Shown here: one piece after another, positions 22,407 to 45,747 of the stretch
Position numbering within the stretch: the stretch's first letter is position 1
Layout of the letters: every line of letters starts with the position of its first letter
Virus record (IMG/VR): IMGVR_UViG_3300042502_000594
Coordinates: 1,485 to 65,484 of that record
Length of the DNA: 64,000 nucleotides
Strand: one strand, 5' to 3'
Source: a virus
Lineage: Duplodnaviria > Caudoviricetes
Program-made: the position numbers and the translations under genes
The notes under the pieces: generated by a model
Seen by the model: the letters and a program-made list of their open reading frames with translations, nothing else
Database searches by the model: none
What the model was told of the DNA's origin: nothing

Positions 22407-24869
22407 TCAATCTATTTCGAAAAACGAAAACCCTCCCTGTACCTCTATCGGTTGATAAGCCTCCTTGTAAAGGTCAGGCATCCGGCTCTTTATGGCCCTC
22501 ATACACCACCCCGTGGCGGCACACAAGTCATGGTTTGTCAAGTCATCAATACCCCTCATTTGACTCCACTCCTCGACTATCTCCCACATCTTCACGTACT
22601 TAACGTTATTATTGAAGAAGGTCATGATGTCTCCGGCCATCTCGTTTTTTTCGGCTTCACCTGCCCAAACGCCTGGCCTTGCGTCCTGCTTTCCGTCTGA
22701 TCCCAAGTCCTTCAATAGGTATCCATCGAACCCATTGTCTCTAAAGTATTCAACCAGAGCTTCTCCGTCGGGCCACTCTGGGTAGACGTAGGCCCCAAGG
22801 AACACAGCCGCCTTTAACCACTCCTCGTGATACTCGGCCTTGTCTTCTGTCTGTCTGTTGTAAATCAAAATCCAGTCGTTACTTACCCACTCACTCCTAG
22901 GCTTGGTGTCTGAATCGACCTGGCTGTCCCTCTTATAGAAAACAGCAGCAGCCGCGTTTGACTTCTTTTTACCTACAGTGTTTCGTTTATGGAACTTTAC
23001 CGGGTCACAGCAAAGGAAGAATTTGTTCATTACAGATGGATCGGGAGCGTAAATAGGACCCCTATTCTTTGGTTGAATGTAACCCTCTTCTGCTGTAACA
23101 ACGGTCTTCCTGTTACGCATCTCATTTGGTGGAAGGTAACTCATGGTCCAACTTCCCTTAGGATCATTCTCCACATAAACATCACCACCAAACTTGTCGC
23201 CCATCCACTTGAAGTTAATCTTTGTGGTAATAGGGGTACGAGAAAACTTAAGTTCCGATATGCGGTCACGCATCTTCTCGATAGGCATACCCATGTCCTT
23301 TGGTATTACCGCGAATGCCTGCTTCCAACTCATCGGGAAGTTCTGCTGTAACTTAATCAGCTTCTGCCATTCTCTCTTACGTTCAAAGTAATCCGCTTGG
23401 TTTAAAAGATATGACTTGGCTCCCTTGGTGATCCACTTGCCCTCGTTGGACATTACAGGTTCCTTTGGATCATCAATAATACTTGCCCCATACTCGTCAA
23501 TGTATCCTTCTACCGCGTAGTAACCCGGCAAGAAGAAATTTATAAGTCCCGACGGTGTAGTTCCGTTCTCGTTGCGGTCAGAGAAGTGTGAGTCATTGGC
23601 AATATCAAAGAACTGCGCTCCACCCCCTGTGTCCATGTCACCTACCGTAGATGGCATGATGCAAAATCCACGAATGTTTTCCCCGCGCTCGATGGCGGGT
23701 TTCATCGTATTGTACCACCACGTCGGGATGTTTTGGTCCGCCGCCTTCGCATCCGTTTTCTTCGCTGGCTCGTCACGGTAGACAAAAGCGATCTCCGCCT
23801 CTCCGTCCGCCGCTTTCTCCGTCGAAGGGAGCGGCGTGATGAAGCACTCCATTTGTTCGGGGATGATTCCTGCCCTTGCTGCTGATGCGATTGCTCCTTC
23901 ATACTGGAAACGCAAACCCTCCTTCGCTTCTATTCGTCCGCGATAGTACGGGCGAAAGAAGAAAGGGAGCTTGCTTACAGGTGTTTGAATTTGTTTTATG
24001 AATATCTTGTTCACCGCCTGGTCCTCGTTCATCGCCTGGATAATGAAGGTCTGGTCGGGCATGTTGAGTGTTCCCCACGTGCAGAAGCAACAAGCAATTG
24101 CCGTCTTCGCAATACGTCGACCAGAGACGAAGTTTATTCCATGTACAGTGCGCTTCCCCTTCTTAACAGTGATGTTGACATTCGGTTCCATGAAATATTC
24201 CACTCCCATGTCGTTCATTTCGTCAACCACGTTCTTGACGTCTTGGTTTGAGTACTTTGTTTTTACTACCGCGTCTTCCCTATAAATAATCTTGTGCTTG
24301 TAGAACGCATCCTCTGTGCTGTAGGCATACATGAACAGGTGAAACATCTTTCTTTGGTAGTCCCTGTAGTCGGGCCTGTTGTTATTCTTACCGAAGTTTT
24401 TTACCGTCCAAAAGTTTAAGAAGAAGTAGTTTGCTCCGTTTATGTAGGTAGGTTTCCCTTTAATGAAACACCAATATCCAACATATCTGCGCTTTATCTG
24501 GAGCTTGATCCACTCAATCTCCATAGCGTAATACTTCTGATTTGATTCGATTTCTTCGTAAATATCTTCCAACCTTACGTCGCCAACCTCCTTGTACTTG
24601 GACTTGTTGGTTGCGTGTTTCTTATTGAAAACAACCTCGTAGATGAGCCTTATCTTTTCAGGAGTTTCCTGATAAGTAAACTTTTGGTCTTTTGGATTCA
24701 TTCCATACCCATCAACGTAGGTAAGGGCCTCCTCCCTTGTCACCTCTCTTTTTAGGTGGTGTGAATACCACTCCTCAAGGCGCGGAAGCGGAATGCGGAT
24801 CGTGTCCAACTCGTCGTCATCCTCGTGGAATGAAACATACTTATCCTCCTCTTCGTATTCGTACTTCAT
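22407..24869 (-). CDS. terL: Terminase large subunit
   Basis: GYWCFIKGKPTYING, Walker A-like SGRRIAKT, Walker B YRDE, STV coupling motif, nuclease CCDP...HDL. Start moved to ATG 24869, which overlaps the upstream TGA. Confidence 0.9.
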   Translation of the reverse strand: MKYEYEEEDKYVSFHEDDDELDTIRIPLPRLEEWYSHHLKREVTREEALTYVDGYGMNPKDQKFTYQETPEKIRLIYEVVFNKKHATNKSKYKEVGDVRLEDIYEEIESNQKYYAMEIEWIKLQIKRRYVGYWCFIKGKPTYINGANYFFLNFWTVKNFGKNNNRPDYRDYQRKMFHLFMYAYSTEDAFYKHKIIYREDAVVKTKYSNQDVKNVVDEMNDMGVEYFMEPNVNITVKKGKRTVHGINFVSGRRIAKTAIACCFCTWGTLNMPDQTFIIQAMNEDQAVNKIFIKQIQTPVSKLPFFFRPYYRGRIEAKEGLRFQYEGAIASAARAGIIPEQMECFITPLPSTEKAADGEAEIAFVYRDEPAKKTDAKAADQNIPTWWYNTMKPAIERGENIRGFCIMPSTVGDMDTGGGAQFFDIANDSHFSDRNENGTTPSGLINFFLPGYYAVEGYIDEYGASIIDDPKEPVMSNEGKWITKGAKSYLLNQADYFERKREWQKLIKLQQNFPMSWKQAFAVIPKDMGMPIEKMRDRISELKFSRTPITTKINFKWMGDKFGGDVYVENDPKGSWTMSYLPPNEMRNRKTVVTAEEGYIQPKNRGPIYAPDPSVMNKFFLCCDPVKFHKRNTVGKKKSNAAAAVFYKRDSQVDSDTKPRSEWVSNDWILIYNRQTEDKAEYHEEWLKAAVFLGAYVYPEWPDGEALVEYFRDNGFDGYLLKDLGSDGKQDARPGVWAGEAEKNEMAGDIMTFFNNNVKYVKMWEIVEEWSQMRGIDDLTNHDLCAATGWCMRAIKSRMPDLYKEAYQPIEVQGGFSFFEID

Positions 24870-25519
24870 GGTATTACCTCCGGGAATATCTCTTTCTTTT
24901 CGCGCCAAATCCTAGCATAGTGTTCGGGCTGTATTCCTAGGTTCTCAGCGCGAACAGAAAACGTGATTGCCTTCTGTAGTGTGATGCTAACCTCGTCACT
25001 CATGATTCGAGTACGGGCATCCACAAGTGTCTGACGCCAACTCTCAAGACCCGCTTGGAAGTTCTTGTCATCATTCGATCTGTCAACAGGCTGAGTCAAG
25101 AGCGCCCTTTGCAACGCAGCTATTCGAATGTCTGCCGTACTCATGATCGAATAATCTTCCGAGCATTGCAGGCGTGTAAACGTGATGTACCGCTCCACCG
25201 CCCAGTCTACATTCATCATGCAGAGCTGGGCGTACCCATCCTCCGAATCCGTGTCATCAACCATGATATTCAGCTTGTTCAACGTGTATCGTTTGCGCTG
25301 GTTGATGTCCGGATACGCATCTTTAACGGGTGTGCCTGGAGCGAACATATATATGAGATATCGAACAACCTTGTCGGCGCTAACCCCCTCAGGAAGGTCA
25401 TCTGACCTGTCCAGAATATGGGCTTGACTGGCCAGGTCCGAGAAGCGGTAGATTACCGACTCGTCATCCGGGATGCCTTCAATGTTGTAGGATATTTTAC
25501 TAAAGTCTAGTTTTATCAT
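24866..25519 (-). CDS. Hypothetical protein, candidate terminase small subunit
   Basis: 217 aa helical, coupled (ATGA) to terL; position only. Confidence 0.4.
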   Translation of the reverse strand: MIKLDFSKISYNIEGIPDDESVIYRFSDLASQAHILDRSDDLPEGVSADKVVRYLIYMFAPGTPVKDAYPDINQRKRYTLNKLNIMVDDTDSEDGYAQLCMMNVDWAVERYITFTRLQCSEDYSIMSTADIRIAALQRALLTQPVDRSNDDKNFQAGLESWRQTLVDARTRIMSDEVSITLQKAITFSVRAENLGIQPEHYARIWREKKEIFPEVIP

Positions 25520-26319
25520 TCTTCGATTGCTAATATAACCCTAGGTTGAAACCTAACGTAGTCGCTTGACTCAGCCATGGTTGAGTCTAGCTTAACTGCA
25601 AAATGCTTTTTTATACAGACCACATCCCCCTTCTTTACCTCTGTGTTTGTCCATACGTCATGGGCTATGTACTTTGGCATCTTGGCTGGAGGAACTTCTA
25701 CTTGCACCCTTTCTGTTTCTGAGTCTAGCAGAAAAATGCTTCCTGACTTTCTATCGTTAGGTAAAACCTTTCCAATGATGTATCCGTTCATGCTCTTAAT
25801 CTCTCCGTTCCTCTTCGCGGCATAAATACATTCAGAAGGAACAAGCACATATCTTTTTCCGTCCTTCTCAAAACCTCCGTCGCCTTCTGTGATAAAGTTC
25901 CTTGTGTAAGTAGAGTCAAACCAAATCTCGTCGCCAGGCTCTCCGTCAAACTCGCAAAAGAAGTCCCAATTCTTTGTGGTAGAACCTTTTTCAGGCTTCT
26001 TCACAAGCACCCCTCTCCTAACGGCCTGGGTAGCTCTAACATCCTCTTTATTTGGATCCACCTCCTTCTTCTGTTCACCAGCCATTCTCACGTATTCAGA
26101 CATGGCCCTCTTGTCTTTGTAATTGCTTTTCTTCATGGACTTTAAAAGCGAACCCATGTCGTTAATGCTACCCTCTTCGGTTATACCCTTTAGGCTGTTT
26201 ACCAACTTTAGTGTTCCGCCATTAAAAGATATCTCATCTTCAGTCCAAGAATGTATCTCGACCAAACAGTCGCCGTCTATAAGCCTTAACTGGTCTATGT
26301 CAACGTCTTCAAAGTTCAT
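25516..26319 (-). CDS. Tandem double-domain GroES-like co-chaperonin
   Basis: Two units: LRLIDGDCLVE...GDEIWF...YVLVPSECIYA and KSMNGYII...KSGSIFL...EVKKGDVV...RVILAIEE. Confidence 0.65.
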   Translation of the reverse strand: MNFEDVDIDQLRLIDGDCLVEIHSWTEDEISFNGGTLKLVNSLKGITEEGSINDMGSLLKSMKKSNYKDKRAMSEYVRMAGEQKKEVDPNKEDVRATQAVRRGVLVKKPEKGSTTKNWDFFCEFDGEPGDEIWFDSTYTRNFITEGDGGFEKDGKRYVLVPSECIYAAKRNGEIKSMNGYIIGKVLPNDRKSGSIFLLDSETERVQVEVPPAKMPKYIAHDVWTNTEVKKGDVVCIKKHFAVKLDSTMAESSDYVRFQPRVILAIEE

Positions 26320-26567
26320 TAGAGTATCTTTTTGTAAATTTCAAACAGTTGCTTTTGGGTCTCAAAGTTTTTCTTACCAACCGGCATGCGTCTCTTTATC
26401 TTGTTCACTCCCCGGCGCAGGGATGAATACGTTCCAAACAGGTTAATCGCGTCCCAGTTACTCATCAGCTTCTCCACATCCTTCATGTCTGTGTTCTCCC
26501 GCTCGATGTAATAGTTGTACACCTCTATGATCCTGTGGTAATTACTTTTTGTCTTTGTCCTTATCAT
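26319..26567 (-). CDS. Hypothetical protein (82 aa)
   Basis: ORF overlapping neighbours in the same operon. Confidence 0.55.
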   Translation of the reverse strand: MIRTKTKSNYHRIIEVYNYYIERENTDMKDVEKLMSNWDAINLFGTYSSLRRGVNKIKRRMPVGKKNFETQKQLFEIYKKIL

Positions 26568-26844
26568 AATGCTCCTTCAGTTTTTGGAAATACATTGAAC
26601 GCTTTATTCGCGTCTCGACCTGTGTCTTCCCTATTTCTTCTAGCGTGTTGTTGTATCTTACGATGGCTTTCTCGACCTGATCTAAGTCATCTGTCGTGAT
26701 GCTAGGATCACAGTAAAGCAGTTTTCTCCGCGCAGATGTGGCCATGGGGGTGAAGATCTTCATCACCTCGTATATCTCAATCTTGTCGTCAATCATCCTG
26801 TTGACGATTGATATGGCTCGTTTCCAGTTATCTATTTTATTCAT
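26542..26844 (-). CDS. Hypothetical protein (100 aa)
   Basis: ORF overlapping neighbours in the same operon. Confidence 0.55.
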   Translation of the reverse strand: MNKIDNWKRAISIVNRMIDDKIEIYEVMKIFTPMATSARRKLLYCDPSITTDDLDQVEKAIVRYNNTLEEIGKTQVETRIKRSMYFQKLKEHYDKDKDKK

Positions 26845-27052
26845 ACAAAAATGCTATATGTCTTTCGTGTACCGAGTACATCTCAGTGTCCTGTAGCTCA
26901 ACCTTTTCAATCTTACCTATAACGCAGGCCTTTTGGCCGACCTCTAGGTCAACCCCGTTTCCTACCGCCATTATGGTTACATCTATTTGCTTTGGCTGTC
27001 TCTTGTCAATGATCACAAAGACACGTCCGTCTGGTGGTCTCAAATTCGTCAT
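26837..27052 (-). CDS. Minimal GroES-like protein (71 aa)
   Basis: NLRPPDGRVFV...IMAVGNG...LEVGQK...YSVHERHIAF aligns by eye with GroES (NIRPLHDRVIV...LAVGNG...VKVGD...IMSESDILA). Confidence 0.65.
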   Translation of the reverse strand: MTNLRPPDGRVFVIIDKRQPKQIDVTIMAVGNGVDLEVGQKACVIGKIEKVELQDTEMYSVHERHIAFLYE

Positions 27053-27056
27053 GGTG

Positions 27057-27124
27057 CAAATATACTCAAAAACAACACAGTGTCAAATTATTGCTTGTAA
27101 ATAGTACTAAACAACGTATATTTG
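27057..27124. promoter_or_regulatory. Divergent Bacteroidota-type housekeeping promoters
   Basis: TATATTTG on minus (27064-27057) 4 nt before ATG 27052, and TATATTTG on plus (27117-27124) 4 nt before ATG 27129; matches the TAnnTTTG -7 consensus. Confidence 0.75.
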
Positions 27125-27128
27125 CAAT

Positions 27129-27320
27129 ATGTTTCTCCTCTCAATTATCTTAACTATTGTATCTATCTATCTGATGATTAAGAACTCTATTTACGGATGT
27201 GGCAAGCGGTGTTACAAGACCCGGAAAGAGGCTAAGGATCATTGTGATTACGACCAACAGGTTTATATGTGCTGGGACTGTGAAATGTGGCACGTAAAAA
27301 ATAATGAAGAAAATACTTGA
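27129..27320 (+). CDS. Small membrane-anchored Cys-rich protein
   Basis: N-terminal hydrophobic helix, then CGKRCY...YMCWDCEMWHV zinc-finger-like pattern; has its own promoter. Confidence 0.55.
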   Translation: MFLLSIILTIVSIYLMIKNSIYGCGKRCYKTRKEAKDHCDYDQQVYMCWDCEMWHVKNNEENT

Positions 27321-27339
27321 CAACCTCGCGTGGTTGTTT

Positions 27340-27460
27340 TATGTTTGCAAAATATATCCTGCCTCCCGTTTGTTAAAGAGCAACAGCAAACGGGGGTTAG
27401 GATAGGTAAATTATCTTTTACCTAATTAGGCCCGTAAAGTTGCTCTTACGGGCTTTTTTT
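27340..27460 (+). ncRNA. Structured leader/attenuator (kissing-loop element 1) upstream of the replication initiator
   Basis: TATGTTTG promoter 27340-27347; long hairpin 27355-27404 with loop AAAGAGCAAC; small hairpin 27404-27423; terminator GCCCGTAA-AGTTGCTC-TTACGGGC-T7. Confidence 0.7.
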
Positions 27461-27464
27461 ATTT

Positions 27465-28154
27465 ATGAATACAGGACAAATAGTAAAAGGGAAACGCACG
27501 CATGACTTTGCGATTATCCCAAATGAAATCTCGCAGTCAAAAGAACTGACCATGGAAGAAAAGGGCATGATGTGTTTCCTTCTTTCGCTCCCAGAGAACT
27601 GGGTTCTTTACAAAAAGAATCTTTACAATCAAATGCCAGATGGTAAACACGCAGTGGATAGGGTGTTTAAGTCCCTGCAAGAGAAGGGGTATATCCTAAG
27701 CTGCCGTCAAATAGACGTAAGTACAGGCAGAATGGAGGGGTGGAACCACATTGTTTACGACGAGCCTCAACTTGACCGAGATGCGGATTTACCGACATCC
27801 GGTTTTCCCGTTGTCGGTGAAACCCGTAAATCGGAAAACATCGATATATATAAAGAAACAAACATCTACAAAGAAACAATAACATATAAATACGCATTTG
27901 AGGATTTTTGGCTTGCATACGACAAGAAGGTGGACAAGAAACAAACCCTTGCTGTTTGGAATAAACTATCTGATGAGGACCGAACCCTAGCAGTTGAAGG
28001 CATGGGAAACCACAAGAGTGGTCGCGAGCGCAAATACTGGAAGGACCCGGTGCGCTATCTTCGTGATAAAAGGTGGGAGGACGAGACAACAACAACGAAC
28101 GTAAAACAAACAAACTATAGCTATGACCCAAATGATGCAAGGAATAAATGGTAA
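27465..28154 (+). CDS. Phage replication initiator/replisome organizer (HTH)
   Basis: FAIIPNE...LTMEEKGMMCFLLSLPENW HTH N-terminus and FEDFWLAYDKKVDK...YLRDKRWED C-terminus. Confidence 0.8.
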   Translation: MNTGQIVKGKRTHDFAIIPNEISQSKELTMEEKGMMCFLLSLPENWVLYKKNLYNQMPDGKHAVDRVFKSLQEKGYILSCRQIDVSTGRMEGWNHIVYDEPQLDRDADLPTSGFPVVGETRKSENIDIYKETNIYKETITYKYAFEDFWLAYDKKVDKKQTLAVWNKLSDEDRTLAVEGMGNHKSGRERKYWKDPVRYLRDKRWEDETTTTNVKQTNYSYDPNDARNKW

Positions 28155-30075
28155 GGTATCCATCTACAAAGACTTCAATGACCTGCAAGGACACACAATT
28201 AGTGTACTGGGCGCACTTGAACGAATTAGGACTGGAAAATCAAAGGCACTTGTTGAGAAGGCGAGGGAAGCCAAGACCAAGAAAGAGGCGGACGAGTTAA
28301 AAAAGAAACTCCCAGCAGTTTGTTTCAGTGGAACTTTTTCCAAAAGGAAGGATTCTGAGCTGATTGAACACTCCGGATACATCGTGTTGGACTTCGATAA
28401 CGTGGCGGATATGGCCCAAAAACGAAGCGAATTGTGTTCAGTGAGGTATATTACCGCTGTTTGGGAATCACCCTCAGGAAAGGGCTTAAAAGCGCTCGTC
28501 CAAATTGAGTGGAAAACAAAGCATAAGGAACACTTTGATGCTTTGATGGAGGAGATGCCCGACATTGACAAGACTGGTCGAAATGTTTCTCGCCTATGCT
28601 TTGAGTCGTATGATCCTCAAGTTTGGTATAACCCAAACGCTGAGGTATACAGCAAGTTGCCTGTAAAGAAAGAAGACAGGAGGTTGCCCCAACAGACAAC
28701 TACAGAGACTATTAACGACGACGACAAGATATTCCAAAACCTTCTAACGTGGATGACGTCCAAGGGTGATGCGTTCCGTGAAGGAGAAAGGAACCACTTT
28801 GTGTTCAAACTCGCAGCAAGCTGTTGCAGATTTGGGATGATGGAAGAGACGTGCTATAGCCTGATGATGATGCACGTTACCCCAGACTCTAGCTTTAGTC
28901 AGAAGGAGTGCAGGCAAGCCATTCGCAGCGCGTATAGGGCCAACATGAATCAGTGGAACACCGCTGAGTTTACTAAAGACCAACTGGTTACAAAGAGTAA
29001 CCACAAGGAAGTAGAGATCGTAATCACCGCAGAAGATGCGGAGAATATCGCCGCAGAAGATGTCATTTATGCGGAGGAAGTATTTGAACAGGCGTCTGAG
29101 ATTTATCACAAGGGCTATCAGGCGGCCATGCCGCTTGGCGTTCCGCTTCTAGACAAACACTTCAAAAGAGTCAAGGGAGAATTAACAATTGTTTCCGGAA
29201 TTGGAAACTACGGTAAGTCTTCTTTCATGAAGTGGGAGATGATATTCCGCATGGTCAGGTTCGGGGAGAAGGTTGCCATATTCACTCCTGAGGAATTACC
29301 TGCTGAACAGTTTTATCATGACCTAGTTGAAATTTACTTTGGTAAGGACTGCACTCCGAATAATTACCACAGGCCGAGTTACGATTCGTACAAGAAGGTG
29401 TACGAAATGATTGGTCAACACATCTTCATGGTGTACCCCAAGAACGTAAGCCCGACTCCTGACTACGTGAAAGAAGTCTTCCTAAGCATGATCATCAAGC
29501 ACGGAATAGACCGCGTTGTAATCGACCCGTTCAATCAGATGGCAAACGACTACACCAAGGGAGGTGGTCGAAGCGACAAGTACCTTGAGACGTTCCTTTC
29601 TGACTGCACAAGGTTTGCAAGGAAGAACAACGTGTACTTCGACATCGTTGTCCACCCGCACAAGATGAGGAAGGGAGACGACGGAAACTACCCATGCCCG
29701 GAGGTGTTCGACCTTGCAGATGGAGCGATGTGGAACAACAAGGCGGACAACATCATCATCTACCACAGGCCTGTTGCTCAGACAGCTCCCGAAAGTCCGC
29801 TCTGTGAGTTTCACTCCAAGAAGATCCGCAGACAGAAGATCGTCGGGATAAAGGGTTTCTTTGACTTTGAACTTGTAAGGTCTACTCGCAGGTTTATGTT
29901 TGATGGAGTAGATTATTTGCAGAGAGCCATAGACGGTCAGTACGTTCAGTCTAACATCGAAGAGCCAAAGCCCTCTGTAATCAAGCCAAACAGAAACTGG
30001 ACTGATTCTAAAGAAGCAAAGGAATGGAATGAGGAGCCAGGACACCCGAACGGGTATAGGGAGGATTGGGAATGA
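28123..30075 (+). CDS. Primase-helicase (VirE-N/BT4734-like + PriCT + SF4 DnaB/T7 gp4-like helicase)
   Basis: KKKLPAVCFSGTF, HSGYIVLDFD, SPSGKGLK, GERN; Walker A GIGNYGKS, VVIDPFN, VHPHK, W.NKADN. Confidence 0.85.
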   Translation: MTQMMQGINGKVSIYKDFNDLQGHTISVLGALERIRTGKSKALVEKAREAKTKKEADELKKKLPAVCFSGTFSKRKDSELIEHSGYIVLDFDNVADMAQKRSELCSVRYITAVWESPSGKGLKALVQIEWKTKHKEHFDALMEEMPDIDKTGRNVSRLCFESYDPQVWYNPNAEVYSKLPVKKEDRRLPQQTTTETINDDDKIFQNLLTWMTSKGDAFREGERNHFVFKLAASCCRFGMMEETCYSLMMMHVTPDSSFSQKECRQAIRSAYRANMNQWNTAEFTKDQLVTKSNHKEVEIVITAEDAENIAAEDVIYAEEVFEQASEIYHKGYQAAMPLGVPLLDKHFKRVKGELTIVSGIGNYGKSSFMKWEMIFRMVRFGEKVAIFTPEELPAEQFYHDLVEIYFGKDCTPNNYHRPSYDSYKKVYEMIGQHIFMVYPKNVSPTPDYVKEVFLSMIIKHGIDRVVIDPFNQMANDYTKGGGRSDKYLETFLSDCTRFARKNNVYFDIVVHPHKMRKGDDGNYPCPEVFDLADGAMWNNKADNIIIYHRPVAQTAPESPLCEFHSKKIRRQKIVGIKGFFDFELVRSTRRFMFDGVDYLQRAIDGQYVQSNIEEPKPSVIKPNRNWTDSKEAKEWNEEPGHPNGYREDWE

Positions 30076-30179
30076 CGAAAAAAACCATATCGGGTATAAA
30101 TTTAACAATTTTTTTCTTGCACAAAAGAAACATATATGCTACATTTGCGAATATAATCAATTAATTAATCATAAAAATT

Positions 30180-44665: not shown

Positions 44666-45096
44666 AACACAACGCAGTAATCACACCACAGGGGGCATTG
44701 CGAATCTACAATCGCCCCCTCTTCGAAGAGGACGTCAGAGCGATGTCCCGTGAGACGGACTTGGCTGTGACCATCGAAGTCAAACTGAAGAAGCGGTTCC
44801 GGTCGGACGTGCAGAACGCATACTATTGGGGCGTGGTAGTGGCCATGATATCGCAGAGACTACGCGAGCTTGGACACGACGTCGACCGAGACCTCACGCA
44901 TGAGTTCCTCAAGGGAAGGTTTCTCTATACTGAGTTCACAGACCCGACATCCGGTGAAGTCATGAAGATTCCACGCAAGACGTCGGAGCTTGCAACGGAA
45001 GAGTTTATGGAATACGTCGAACACGTCAAGCAGTTTGCTGCTGAGACGTTGGACATTTATATTCCCGACCCAAATGAGCAACTTGAGATAGGTTAA
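44650..45096 (+). CDS. NinB/Orf-like recombination protein
   Basis: RSDVQNAYYWG...HEFLK...TSELATEEFMEYVE...IPDP. Confidence 0.7.
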   Translation: MEGTMKHNAVITPQGALRIYNRPLFEEDVRAMSRETDLAVTIEVKLKKRFRSDVQNAYYWGVVVAMISQRLRELGHDVDRDLTHEFLKGRFLYTEFTDPTSGEVMKIPRKTSELATEEFMEYVEHVKQFAAETLDIYIPDPNEQLEIG

Positions 45097-45296
45097 ACCT
45101 TGGACTCATTCAAAAGAAAAGACAGAGAAAAGAAACAAGTCAAGAAGAAACCTAAAGAGAAGAAAAGAAAAAGCCTCCCCCCGTGAAAAACAAACTACCC
45201 CGCCCCACAAAGGGGCAGCTACCCGATCCAACATACTCGCGTATGAAGTTTGCCTCTTGCACCGACAGGGCTGATTCGGATAGGTGGGAAACGGGT

Positions 45297-45412
45297 AAAA
45301 AAAAAGCCCTCGTCTGGTACGTCCGAGGGCAATTTTGGCATGAGAATTAGATTTCTCAATTCCCACATTGCACTGGTACCAGACACTGCAATGTGAGAAC
45401 GCAACAAAAGTA
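45297..45412 (-). ncRNA. Structured RNA (kissing-loop element 2)
   Basis: Minus strand: TACTTTTG promoter 45412-45405; hairpin TTCTCACATTGCA/TGCAATGTGGGAA with loop containing GTCTGGTAC; small hairpin TGAGAA/TTCTCA; terminator GCCCTCG-GACGTACCAGA-CGAGGGC-T9. Confidence 0.7.
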
Positions 45413-45480
45413 TGGCTACAAAAATGTAAAAGTCAAAAAAAATAATTGCATAAAAACAACACATAAGTTATCTTTGTAAA

Positions 45481-45747
45481 ATGAAAACAACATCTTTAAC
45501 AATTTTAATCGCGCTATCCCTACTTGCATGCAAGAAAGAGGAGCAACCGGAACCCGCACAACCAACACAACAATGTAACTGCGGGACTATCGCTAACGAC
45601 GGCATCGACTCGGCCACCAACTGCTACTGGTTGGAGATACGAAACGAATGCTCCGGCAACAAGAAGAAGTTCTGCTTTGACCAAGACGTTTGGACAAACA
45701 ACTTTGTCGGCGACAGATTCTGTGTAACTAACGTAACATCTTGGTGA
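45481..45747 (+). CDS. Small Cys-rich lipoprotein
   Basis: Signal peptide with lipobox LLAC followed by KKEE; six further Cys; TATCTTTG box 4 nt upstream. Confidence 0.75.
   Translation: MKTTSLTILIALSLLACKKEEQPEPAQPTQQCNCGTIANDGIDSATNCYWLEIRNECSGNKKKFCFDQDVWTNNFVGDRFCVTNVTSW

What the first reader, a model, noticed from the sequence alone, without database searches (positions are those of the whole stretch)
27340..27464. Kissing-loop attenuator-like RNA gating the replication operon
Seen: promoter TATGTTTG, then a ~19-bp hairpin (27355-27404) whose loop carries AAGAGCAAC (27376-27384), a short middle hairpin, then a terminator whose loop and first 3'-arm bases read GTTGCTCTT (27439-27447), the exact 9-nt reverse complement. 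The U tract ends 4 nt before the initiator ATG. Inference: loop-loop pairing competes with or stabilises the terminator, giving an RNA switch over initiator and primase-helicase expression (replication or immunity control, conceptually like P4 CI or P1 C4 RNAs but with a different layout). I do not recognise it as a named family.
Basis: partly seen in the sequence, partly recalled or inferred. Interest (0 to 1): 0.85.

Follow-up and report, generated by a model that had tools for sequence, protein, structure and literature searches.

The report
Kissing-loop terminator leader RNA of phage
In front of this lake-type phage's DNA-replication genes lies a short folded RNA in which the tip of a first hairpin base-pairs with the tip of the transcription-stop hairpin, a pairing that related phages keep with many different letter combinations, so it is a real and uncatalogued RNA control element.

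Summary
Promoter (27317-27347), hairpin H1, hairpin H2, an intrinsic terminator H3 and the initiator ATG (27465) follow one another. The H1 loop and the H3 loop are 9-nt complementary.

The pairing is not chance. All 56 distinct homologous leaders keep at least 7 Watson-Crick pairs, through 9 different loop-pair alleles. Shuffled loops reach 7 in 0.28% of trials.

A second unit of the same design but unrelated sequence lies on the minus strand (45297-45436). It has no gene behind it and shows 12 alleles in relatives.

Cultured Flavobacterium Elemovirus phages carry an analogous leader before their replication genes.

Rfam has no match, and four of my literature searches found no description.

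Best reading (about 0.45): the loop-loop pairing captures the terminator loop as it emerges and hinders closure of the terminator stem, so it sets read-through into the replication operon. This works like the guanidine-IV riboswitch, but without a ligand pocket and with variable "address" letters.

Action in trans by the terminated RNA (as with IsrK or P4 CI) is a serious rival. No transcript data were obtained.

This scan has noted the same class before on other phage DNA.

The parts
27317..27347 (+). Promoter of unit 1: TTGACA (27317-27322), spacer, TATGTTTG (27340-27347; fits the Bacteroidota -7 box TAnnTTTG). It overlaps the stop codon of the upstream 63-aa ORF.
   Evidence: 10 of 12 consensus matches. 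Nearly invariant in relatives: pi = 0.063 over the 60 nt upstream in 25 sequences. The Bacteroidota consensus is recalled.
27357..27402 (+). H1: 5-bp lower stem, 1x1 mismatch, 12-bp upper stem, 10-nt loop (27375-27384).
   Evidence: I2. In one search, 8 of its 14 pairs show a change on both sides in A1 (40 sequences); RNAalifold counts 12 of 24 H1+H3 pairs as compensatory.
27376..27384 (+). L1 pairing segment AAGAGCAAC (core GAGCAAC, 27378-27384) in the H1 loop.
27403..27424 (+). H2: 8-bp A/U-rich middle hairpin (about -6 kcal/mol). It forms the tip of the alternative antiterminator fold.
   Evidence: A hairpin is present at this place, with unrelated sequences, in the folds.
27428..27460 (+). 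H3: intrinsic terminator. 10-bp stem (27428-27437 with 27446-27455), 8-nt loop (27438-27445), T7 run (27454-27460).
   Evidence: In one search, 4 of its 10 pairs show a change on both sides.
27439..27447 (+). L3 pairing segment GUUGCUCUU: 7 loop bases plus the first 2 bases of the terminator's 3' arm.
27465..28154 (+). Replication initiator gene (229 aa). Its ATG lies 4 nt after the T run.
   Evidence: phrog_270 'replication initiation protein', E = 8e-18.
28123..30075 (+). Primase-helicase gene (650 aa).
   Evidence: BT4734-like_N, PriCT_1; phrog_18375.
45405..45436 (-). Promoter of unit 2: TTGAC (45436-45432) and TACTTTTG (45412-45405).
45359..45400 (-). Unit 2 H1: 14-bp stem (45400-45387 with 45372-45359). 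The apical loop holds GUCUGGUAC (45384-45376).
45341..45358 (-). Unit 2 H2: 6-bp hairpin.
45297..45330 (-). Unit 2 terminator: 7-bp stem (45330-45324 with 45312-45306). The 11-nt loop holds GUACCAGAC (45320-45312, its last base in the 3' arm). T9 run at 45305-45297.

Best explanation
Unit 1 is a roughly 110-nt promoter-proximal leader RNA that gates transcription into the replication operon. H1 and H2 fold first. When the terminator's 5' arm and loop (L3) leave the polymerase, the free H1 loop (L1) pairs with L3 over 7-10 bp.

With H1, H2 and a closed H3 stem, the linker between H1 and H3 is too short for this kiss. The pairing also runs 1-3 nt into the terminator's 3' arm. A formed kiss therefore hinders closure of the terminator stem. 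In many members it can extend into a long antiterminator hairpin with H2 at its tip. The polymerase then reads through into the initiator and primase-helicase genes. If the kiss is missed, the transcript ends as a short RNA.

The fraction that reads through would be set by the race between kiss formation and transcription. Anything that occupies L1 or L3, including the terminated RNA itself, would shift it.

Shown: the anatomy, conservation of the pairing, and its position before the replication genes.

Inferred: that the RNA is made, that the pairing opposes termination, and what the input is.
For: 1. Pairing. All 56 distinct unit-1 leaders (from 67 loci) have at least 7 Watson-Crick complementary bases between the H1-loop and terminator-loop regions: 19 with 7 nt, 13 with 8, 17 with 9, 7 with 10. 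They fall into 9 core alleles.
   - Inside strictly parsed loops, 52 of 56 reach 7. One reaches 6, and 3 were mis-parsed by my H1 finder.
   - Shuffled loops reach 7 in 0.28% of trials. Non-cognate loop pairs reach 7 in 8 of 2014.
   - On alignment A1 the 7 kiss pairs are 98.6% paired. Two of them switch on both sides (22 versus 17 sequences). The covariation score is 0.327 against 0.197 in shuffles (0 of 500 reach it) and 0.046-0.102 when the partner is slid.
2. RNA, not DNA. One unit-2 allele keeps the helix through a U.G wobble, and the stems also use G.U.
3. Gate position. The T run ends 4 nt before the window's ATG; in nine distant or variant loci the ATG lies 6-19 nt after the leader's end. 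The gene behind it matches replication-initiator families in the window and in 6 of 8 further proteins tested, from several initiator types.
4. Opposition to the terminator.
   - The complement encroaches on the terminator's 3' arm by 1-3 nt in 35 of 56 unit-1 and 21 of 25 unit-2 sequences. It touches the 5' arm in only 2 of 56 and 4 of 25.
   - In transcripts cut before the 3' arm, a fold with L1xL3 as a helix lies a median 2.4 kcal/mol (unit 1; 48 of 56 within 5) and 3.8 kcal/mol (unit 2; 19 of 25 within 5) above the optimum.
   - Arm-flipped controls are 2-3 kcal/mol worse for unit 1. Paired Wilcoxon gives 2e-7 and 7e-7, but these are inflated by relatedness.
5. Precedent. In the guanidine-IV riboswitch a kissing loop between the first hairpin and the terminator hairpin hinders the complete terminator stem, and growth of that stem shortens the linker and clashes with the kiss (PMC11611296, passages read).
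Against: - No transcript evidence. The one RNA run found holds only fragments of a relative and none over the leader.
- In full-length RNA the terminator fold wins by a median 9.7 kcal/mol (unit 1) and 12.1 kcal/mol (unit 2). H1 alone is -25 kcal/mol. Read-through therefore depends on kinetics that I cannot compute.
- A kiss could equally pre-organise the terminator and help it.
- Unit 2 has the same design but no same-strand ORF behind it, in the window and in two relatives. Gating a protein-coding operon therefore cannot be the whole function.
- The steric argument is my own estimate from helix lengths, not a model.
- Support for the extra antiterminator pairs is modest. Four recombinant leaders read carry a mismatch there by my reading. 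For unit 2 one flip control is not significant (p = 0.09).
- A ligand-free, strong kiss gives no obvious regulatory input.
Confidence: 0.45

Rival explanations
1. Self-addressed small RNA acting in trans. The abundant terminated ~105-nt RNA carries both loops. It pairs 'hand in hand' with nascent or read-through copies of its own leader, or forms homodimers, and so raises or lowers read-through or translation according to its own dose. This would be a timer or feedback loop. The variable loop letters would keep different units and co-infecting relatives from cross-talk.
For: - Both units have full promoters and strong terminators, so a short RNA is the expected main product.
- Unit 2 stands alone with no ORF behind it.
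- Two units in one genome use unrelated codes, and their alleles appear in different combinations across the contigs that hold both units (my pairing of contig names with alleles).
- With all three hairpins closed, an intramolecular kiss looks sterically impossible in the window's RNA: there is a 3-4 nt linker plus H2 against about 35 stacked base pairs (inference). An antiparallel dimer with two kisses needs no strain.
- The kiss helix varies more than the other helices: pi = 0.27-0.31 against 0.15 for H1 and 0.04 for H3. The leader is about 4 times more variable than its flanks: 0.229 against 0.063 and 0.059.
- Precedents: the terminated form of IsrK acts in trans on its own read-through form, and P4 CI RNA pairs with seqA and seqC of its own operon (PMC4825925, passages read).
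Against: - Cis pairing has the advantage of local concentration, and the sterics are relieved before the terminator stem closes.
- Some alleles differ by only one terminal pair (GUCUGGUAC versus GUCUGGUAG), so they would cross-react.
- Kiss diversity does not exceed that of the unpaired linker (0.42) or the H2 loop (0.36). Faster change may reflect weak constraint rather than selection for new codes.
- The phage appears virulent, which removes the classical immunity setting.
- No RNA data.
Confidence: 0.27
2. Structural tertiary contact only. The kiss, or a transient one, merely compacts or stabilises a small RNA or leader whose real function lies elsewhere, for example binding a protein or acting through H2 or the linker. 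The terminator is a plain terminator with constitutive leak.
For: - The pairing is conserved, but nothing ties it to regulation.
- Unit 2 has no gene behind it.
- No further complementary targets appear in the genome. The unit-2 9-mers are unique. The unit-1 9-mer has one extra copy per strand inside coding DNA, against 0.24 expected.
Against: - H2 and the linker are the least conserved parts, so they make poor functional cores.
- The encroachment on the terminator's 3' arm is one-sided.
- The near-isoenergetic alternative fold is unexplained by this reading.
- The unit sits immediately before replication-initiator-type genes in the window, in 6 of 8 further proteins tested and before the Elemovirus replication module.
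Confidence: 0.15
3. DNA-level element: the two 9-bp segments are inverted half-sites of a dimeric DNA-binding protein (an operator or origin element) rather than RNA partners.
For: An inverted repeat in DNA and complementarity in RNA are the same thing on paper. The site lies beside the initiator gene.
Against: - The segments always sit in the loops of a hairpin and of a terminator, downstream of a conserved promoter.
- A U.G wobble allele exists.
- 21 alleles would need as many protein specificities.
- The leader allele is independent of initiator type. L045 has the window's leader with a different initiator type, and L025 has a 96%-identical initiator with another allele.
- No iterons lie nearby.
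Confidence: 0.03

Closest known systems
Guanidine-IV riboswitch (mepA motif)
   Same: A 5' hairpin loop and the loop of the terminator hairpin form a kissing loop that hinders the complete terminator stem and gives read-through. The kiss and the grown terminator stem exclude each other through the short linker (PMC11611296, passages read).
   Different: - The guanidine-IV kiss depends on a ligand (PMC11611296); that it also rests on conserved loop bases is recalled.
- Here the kiss is 7-10 plain Watson-Crick pairs, -9 to -20 kcal/mol as a free duplex, and hypervariable (21 alleles).
- No Rfam model matches.
- The genes behind it are phage replication genes, and an extra middle hairpin is present.
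Leader-derived phage regulatory RNAs: P4 CI RNA (seqB with seqA/seqC), P1/P7 C4, N15 CA, Gifsy-1 IsrK
   Same: A short RNA made from the leader of the operon it controls pairs with complementary segments of the same transcript. In P4 the controlled operon holds the replication genes, and in IsrK the terminated form acts on the read-through form (PMC4825925, passages read). Heteroimmune relatives of P1/P7 and P4 differ by matched changes (recalled).
   Different: - No sequence or model similarity; the C4 and IsrK families are not among the matches.
- Here both partners are hairpin loops inside one ~105-nt unit, one of them the terminator loop.
- No processing is implied.
- The phage shows no lysogeny genes.
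   Same: Two loops of one small phage RNA are complementary and co-vary among relatives, which would allow intermolecular assembly (recalled).
   Different: - pRNA pairs 4 nt and is part of the packaging motor.
- It is not a promoter-proximal leader ending in a terminator.
- No Rfam match here.
IncI-alpha / IncB plasmid repZ/repA leader pseudoknot
   Same: A hairpin loop in the leader of a replication-initiator gene pairs with a distant segment just upstream of the initiator start and switches its expression (recalled).
   Different: - That system needs translation of a leader peptide and an antisense RNA.
- No ORF of 40 aa or more lies on the + strand between 27320 and 27465.
- No convincing antisense promoter was seen (and reading).
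Lambda PR' - 6S RNA - tR' promoter-proximal terminator unit
   Same: A promoter makes a short terminated RNA unless the polymerase is made to read through into a gene block (recalled).
   Different: - Lambda's release is by protein Q acting at the promoter.
- Here the conserved, co-varying feature is an RNA-RNA contact with the terminator loop.

Membership tests
Intrinsic (Rho-independent) terminator | G+C-rich stem-loop directly followed by a U run | tested here: met
   10-bp stem at 27428-27455 and a T7 run. Unit 2 has a 7-bp stem and a T9 run.
Guanidine-IV riboswitch (mepA motif) | Kissing loop between the first hairpin and the terminator hairpin | tested here: met
   Co-varying 7-10 nt loop-loop complementarity.
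Guanidine-IV riboswitch (mepA motif) | Match to the family's covariance model with its conserved loop nucleotides | tested here: not met
   Not among the 8 matches at E <= 10 over 26000-29000. The whole window gives 0 matches at gathering score. The loop letters are hypervariable.
Guanidine-IV riboswitch (mepA motif) | Controls guanidine export or detoxification genes | tested here: not met
   The downstream genes are a replication initiator and a primase-helicase.
C4 / IsrK / P4 CI leader antisense RNAs | Match to the Rfam models of these RNAs | tested here: not met
   no such match.
C4 / IsrK / P4 CI leader antisense RNAs | A stable short RNA derived from the leader acts on the same operon's transcript | not testable with these tools
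   The only RNA run found gives no cover of the leader.
Classical attenuator (mutually exclusive antiterminator and terminator hairpins) | An alternative pairing that sequesters the terminator's 5' arm and competes energetically | tested here: inconclusive
   Before the 3' arm exists, the alternative fold is within a median 2.4 kcal/mol (unit 1) and 3.8 kcal/mol (unit 2) of the optimum. It beats arm-flipped controls by 2-3 kcal/mol for unit 1. The full-length terminator fold wins by a median 9.7 and 12.1 kcal/mol. The extra pairs are not strictly conserved.
Classical attenuator (leader-peptide type) | A short ORF in the leader whose translation decides the fold | tested here: not met
   No + strand ORF of 40 aa or more lies between 27320 and 27465, and no ATG occurs in 27348-27464 (reading).
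phi29 pRNA | Match to the pRNA model and a role in the packaging motor | tested here: not met
   No Rfam match. The function is not testable here.

The most novel reading that the evidence does not exclude
These are ligand-free, address-coded RNA gates. Each unit's terminated product is also its own effector. That would make an RNA-only timer or copy-number sensor for phage gene blocks. Orthogonal codes would allow several independent channels in one genome and insulate co-infecting relatives.
Probability: 0.22. Interest if true: 0.9.

Novelty: new variant of a known kind. Interest (0 to 1): 0.78.

Why it matters
If the pairing sets read-through, this is a widespread RNA-only switch that Flavobacteriia-type phages place before their replication genes and elsewhere. 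It has a freely re-codable 7-10 nt address.

It would extend the kissing-loop antiterminator principle, so far known from one ligand-dependent riboswitch class, to ligand-free phage gene control.

It would give a natural set of orthogonal terminator switches for synthetic biology.

It would open the almost unknown field of gene timing in aquatic Bacteroidota phages.

Cultured Elemovirus phages of Flavobacterium sp. BAL314 carry an analogous leader with two alleles, so the idea can be tested at the bench.

Tried and rejected
- Rfam. An E-value search of 26000-29000 gave 8 weak matches. The best were trpB at 36.1 bits against a gathering score of 59, and anti-hemB at 27.6 against 49.5. All are generic hairpin-plus-terminator likeness. 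44900-45600 gave 2 weak matches. The whole window at gathering score gave 0. There are no tRNAs.
- RNA evidence. One RNA run (X1, share 0.07, contigs only) was found. Laid on 26500-30100 it gave 9 pieces, 85-99% alike, none over 26984-27467. This says nothing about expression.
- Cultured and prophage relatives. blastn of 26800-30100 against cultured phages found no match. The genome-contig scan with the initiator profile gave only 3 weak loci, none with the RNA.
- Trans targets. No enrichment of the loop words elsewhere in the window.
- Iterons or an origin beside the leader: none.
- The region downstream of unit 2 (45097-45296) is highly conserved but shows no fold signal (z = -0.43) and no convincing ORF. 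It is left unexplained.
- DNA-operator reading: rejected (see rivals).
- A steric case for trans action only was weakened by two things: the guanidine-IV precedent, and the two-hairpin variants with long single-stranded linkers (L137, Elemovirus).
- My first control, which compared 62 nt against 34 nt including the stems, was too loose: shuffles often reached 5-6 nt. It was replaced by a loops-only control, in which my H1 finder mis-parsed 3 of 56 leaders.
- Literature. Six searches, of which looked for a prior description, found none of this element. PMC10690425 lists 10,006 candidate structured RNAs from IMG/VR, and its supplementary tables, which I could not open, may contain this motif. 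PMC11979758 was seen as a search listing only.

Full report
**What the window is.**
The window is bases 1485-65484 of a complete 65,484-bp IMG/VR phage record with direct terminal repeats.
- Genes left of 27052 run on the minus strand and include a large terminase at 22407-24908.
- Genes from 27129 run on the plus strand. They are a 63-aa ORF, the leader studied here, a 229-aa replication initiator (phrog_270, E = 8e-18), and a 650-aa primase-helicase (BT4734-like_N and PriCT_1; phrog_18375).
- The nearest cultured relatives of the primase-helicase are all below 60% identity. They are mostly Flavobacterium phages: 177 of 205 records.
- The genome has no tyrosine or serine recombinase.
- A scan of one genome for each of 185,579 species found no close prophage copy.
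- The phage is therefore probably a virulent phage of a Flavobacteriia-type host.

**The observation.**
- TTGACA-N17-TATGTT lies at 27317-27345, with TATGTTTG at 27340-27347.
- H1: 27357-27361 with 27398-27402, and 27363-27374 with 27385-27396; loop 27375-27384.
- H2: 27403-27410 with 27417-27424.
- Terminator H3: 27428-27437 with 27446-27455; loop 27438-27445; T7 run to 27460; ATG at 27465.
- AAGAGCAAC (27376-27384) is the exact reverse complement of GTTGCTCTT (27439-27447).
- The fold is far better than shuffles: -46.7 kcal/mol, z = -5.93, 0 of 200.

**Relatives and covariation.**
- The initiator protein found 57 viral loci. The 56 that include upstream DNA all carry the leader.
- An initiator profile found 18 metagenome loci, 17 with the leader.
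- The primase-helicase found 68 loci. Of the 18 on new contigs, 12 have a model match.
- Together these are 67 loci and 56 distinct leaders.
- Every one has at least 7 Watson-Crick complementary bases between the H1-loop region and the terminator-loop region (7 nt in 19, 8 in 13, 9 in 17, 10 in 7).
- There are 9 core alleles: GAGCAAC, GAACCAC, GUAAGGC, GUGGAGU, GUACGAG, GUAGAGC, GUCGAGAG, GGACUAG and GUAAGGAA, each with its exact complement.
- Restricted to the parsed loops, 52 of 56 reach 7. One reaches 6, and 3 were mis-parsed by my script. Shuffled loops reach 7 in 0.28% of trials, and non-cognate pairs in 8 of 2014.
- On the 40-sequence alignment A1 the 7 kiss pairs are 98.6% paired. Two of them switch on both sides (22 against 17 sequences). 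The one apparent miss (L050) is a 2-column alignment shift, and it has its own allele.
- H1 and H3 also co-vary.
- These sequences are related, so counts of sequences overstate the number of events. The safer figure is at least 8 allele changes, all compensated.

**Mosaic structure.**
- The leader moves independently of its neighbours. L045 has the window's leader apart from one more T in the run, but an initiator of another type. L025 has a 96%-identical initiator with the GAACCAC allele.
- The leader is a variable island. In 25 sequences, pi is 0.229, against 0.063 for the 60 nt upstream and 0.059 for the first 24 nt of the gene.

**A second unit.**
I confirmed it.
- Promoter TTGAC and TACTTTTG. 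A 14-bp H1 whose loop holds GUCUGGUAC (45384-45376). A 6-bp H2. A terminator whose loop holds GUACCAGAC (45320-45312). A T9 run. MFE -43.3 kcal/mol, z = -4.48.
- A generic scan finds just these two units in the window. Of 20 Markov shuffles, 18 gave none and 2 gave one.
- Unit 2 lies between plus-strand genes, a NinB-like gene and an 88-aa ORF. No ORF follows it on its own strand, in the window or in two relatives.
- A model built from it finds it in 31 of 51 NinB loci. Of 5 records without a hit, 2 have it further away and 3 have none; two of those three are complete genomes.
- Its 25 distinct copies show 12 alleles. 22 have 7-10 Watson-Crick pairs, and 3 have 9 pairs including one U.G. Seven of 8 kiss pairs change on both sides.
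- The unit-2 model hits unit 1 weakly (25.3 bits, E = 0.007), so the two may share ancestry.
- The alleles of the two units appear in different combinations across the contigs that hold both. This rests on my own pairing of contig names with the alleles.

**Wider family.**
- More distant replication modules carry a two-hairpin variant. In L137 an 11-nt H1 loop segment is complementary to the inside of a large terminator hairpin. L145 is weaker.
- The cultured Flavobacterium phages elemoE and elemoA (genus Elemovirus) have such a leader before their replication module. The first 63 alignment columns are identical between them, but the loop pairs differ: GUGGAGG with CCUCCAC, against UGAGAGC with GCUCUCA.
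- The gene behind the leader matches replication-initiator families in the window and in 6 of 8 further proteins tested.
- A words search of this scan's notes shows that the same class has been noted and followed up on many other Bacteroidota phage windows, including a lake-water phage replication leader. Those are unchecked notes. My conclusions rest on the calls above.

**How it may work.**
That the two loops pair is well supported. What the pairing does is inference. Three observations point to opposition to the terminator.
1. With H1 (about 18 stacked pairs), H2 and a closed 10-bp H3, the window's linker of 3-4 nt plus H2 cannot span a coaxial H1-kiss-H3 stack of about 35 pairs. This is my estimate. 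The kiss and the complete terminator stem should therefore exclude each other. This is the relation described for the guanidine-IV riboswitch, where the kissing loop hinders the full terminator stem and the growing stem shortens the linker (PMC11611296, passages read; the lead came from note e1-5925297).
2. The complement runs 1-3 nt into the terminator's 3' arm in 35 of 56 unit-1 and 21 of 25 unit-2 sequences. It reaches the 5' arm in only 2 of 56 and 4 of 25.
3. In transcripts ending before the 3' arm, a fold in which L1xL3 is the base of a long hairpin with H2 at its tip lies a median 2.4 kcal/mol (unit 1) and 3.8 kcal/mol (unit 2) above the optimum. For unit 1, natural sequences are 2-3 kcal/mol closer to it than arm-flipped controls.

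Against this, the full-length terminator fold is better by a median 9.7 and 12.1 kcal/mol and H1 alone is -25 kcal/mol. The outcome must therefore be kinetic, and a helper role for the kiss cannot be excluded.

**Cis or trans.**
- The terminated RNA carries both loops and could pair with nascent copies or dimerise. An antiparallel dimer with two kisses is sterically easy.
- IsrK and P4 CI show that leader-derived phage RNAs can act on their own operon's transcript (PMC4825925, passages read).
- Several things favour some role beyond a simple cis gate: the stand-alone unit 2, the two unrelated codes in one genome, and the faster change of the kiss helix than of the other helices (pi = 0.27-0.31 against 0.15 and 0.04).
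- However, kiss diversity does not exceed that of the unpaired linker (0.42). Some alleles differ by a single end pair. The phage seems virulent. A selective drive for new codes is therefore not shown.

**Novelty.**
- No Rfam family matches.
- Four of my six literature searches looked for a prior description and found none. sought papers on the known analogues.
- A catalogue of 10,006 candidate structured RNAs from IMG/VR (PMC10690425, passages read) may list it in supplements that I could not open.
- I class it as a new variant of a known kind: a kissing-loop antiterminator or leader RNA control. It is distinguished by a ligand-free, re-codable Watson-Crick address, several copies per genome, and stand-alone units.

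Noticed in passing
window 27319-27338: The spacer of the unit-1 promoter holds a palindrome, ACAACC-N6-GGTTGT, followed by TTTTATGTTT. Relatives keep it with matched or G.U-compatible changes: ACAAAC/GTTTGT in L005, ACAGCC/GGTTGT in L048. It may be the terminator of the upstream 63-aa ORF, or an operator.
   Followed up: partly
window 27050-27065 and 27116-27131: A 16-nt inverted repeat (88%) frames the divergent intergenic region. Each arm holds a TATATTTG-type -7 box a few bases before the ATG of the divergent genes (27052 minus strand, 27129 plus strand). This suggests mirror-image promoters with near-leaderless mRNAs.
   Followed up: no
window 45097-45296: The 200 nt behind unit 2's terminator are far better conserved among relatives than unit 2 itself. 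On the plus strand they hold a long purine-rich run and G/C-rich blocks. There is no fold signal (z = -0.43) and no convincing ORF. Possibly an origin, a primer-forming region or another RNA.
   Followed up: partly
L202 3762-3880 (MT497078.1) and L203 463-592 (MT497017.1): Cultured Flavobacterium Elemovirus phages have an analogous leader (a hairpin loop complementary to the apical loop of a long terminator hairpin) before a small ORF, the replication protein and the primase-helicase. Two alleles exist between identical flanks.
   Followed up: partly
L137 1772-1885; L145 1320-1430: Distant replication modules carry a two-hairpin variant. In L137 an 11-nt loop segment pairs with the inside of a large terminator hairpin that encloses a small hairpin. 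L145 has two 6-nt complements only.
   Followed up: partly
window 27129-27320: A 63-aa ORF with a hydrophobic N-terminus and a Cys-rich tail (CGKRC...CDYD...CWDC) heads the plus-strand block. It has no Pfam or PHROG match.
   Followed up: no
records G001, G002, G003 (relatives reached through L173, L183, L184): Three relatives, two of them judged 100% complete, give no match to the unit-2 model. Unit 2 is therefore not universal in the group, or it has diverged beyond the model.
   Followed up: no
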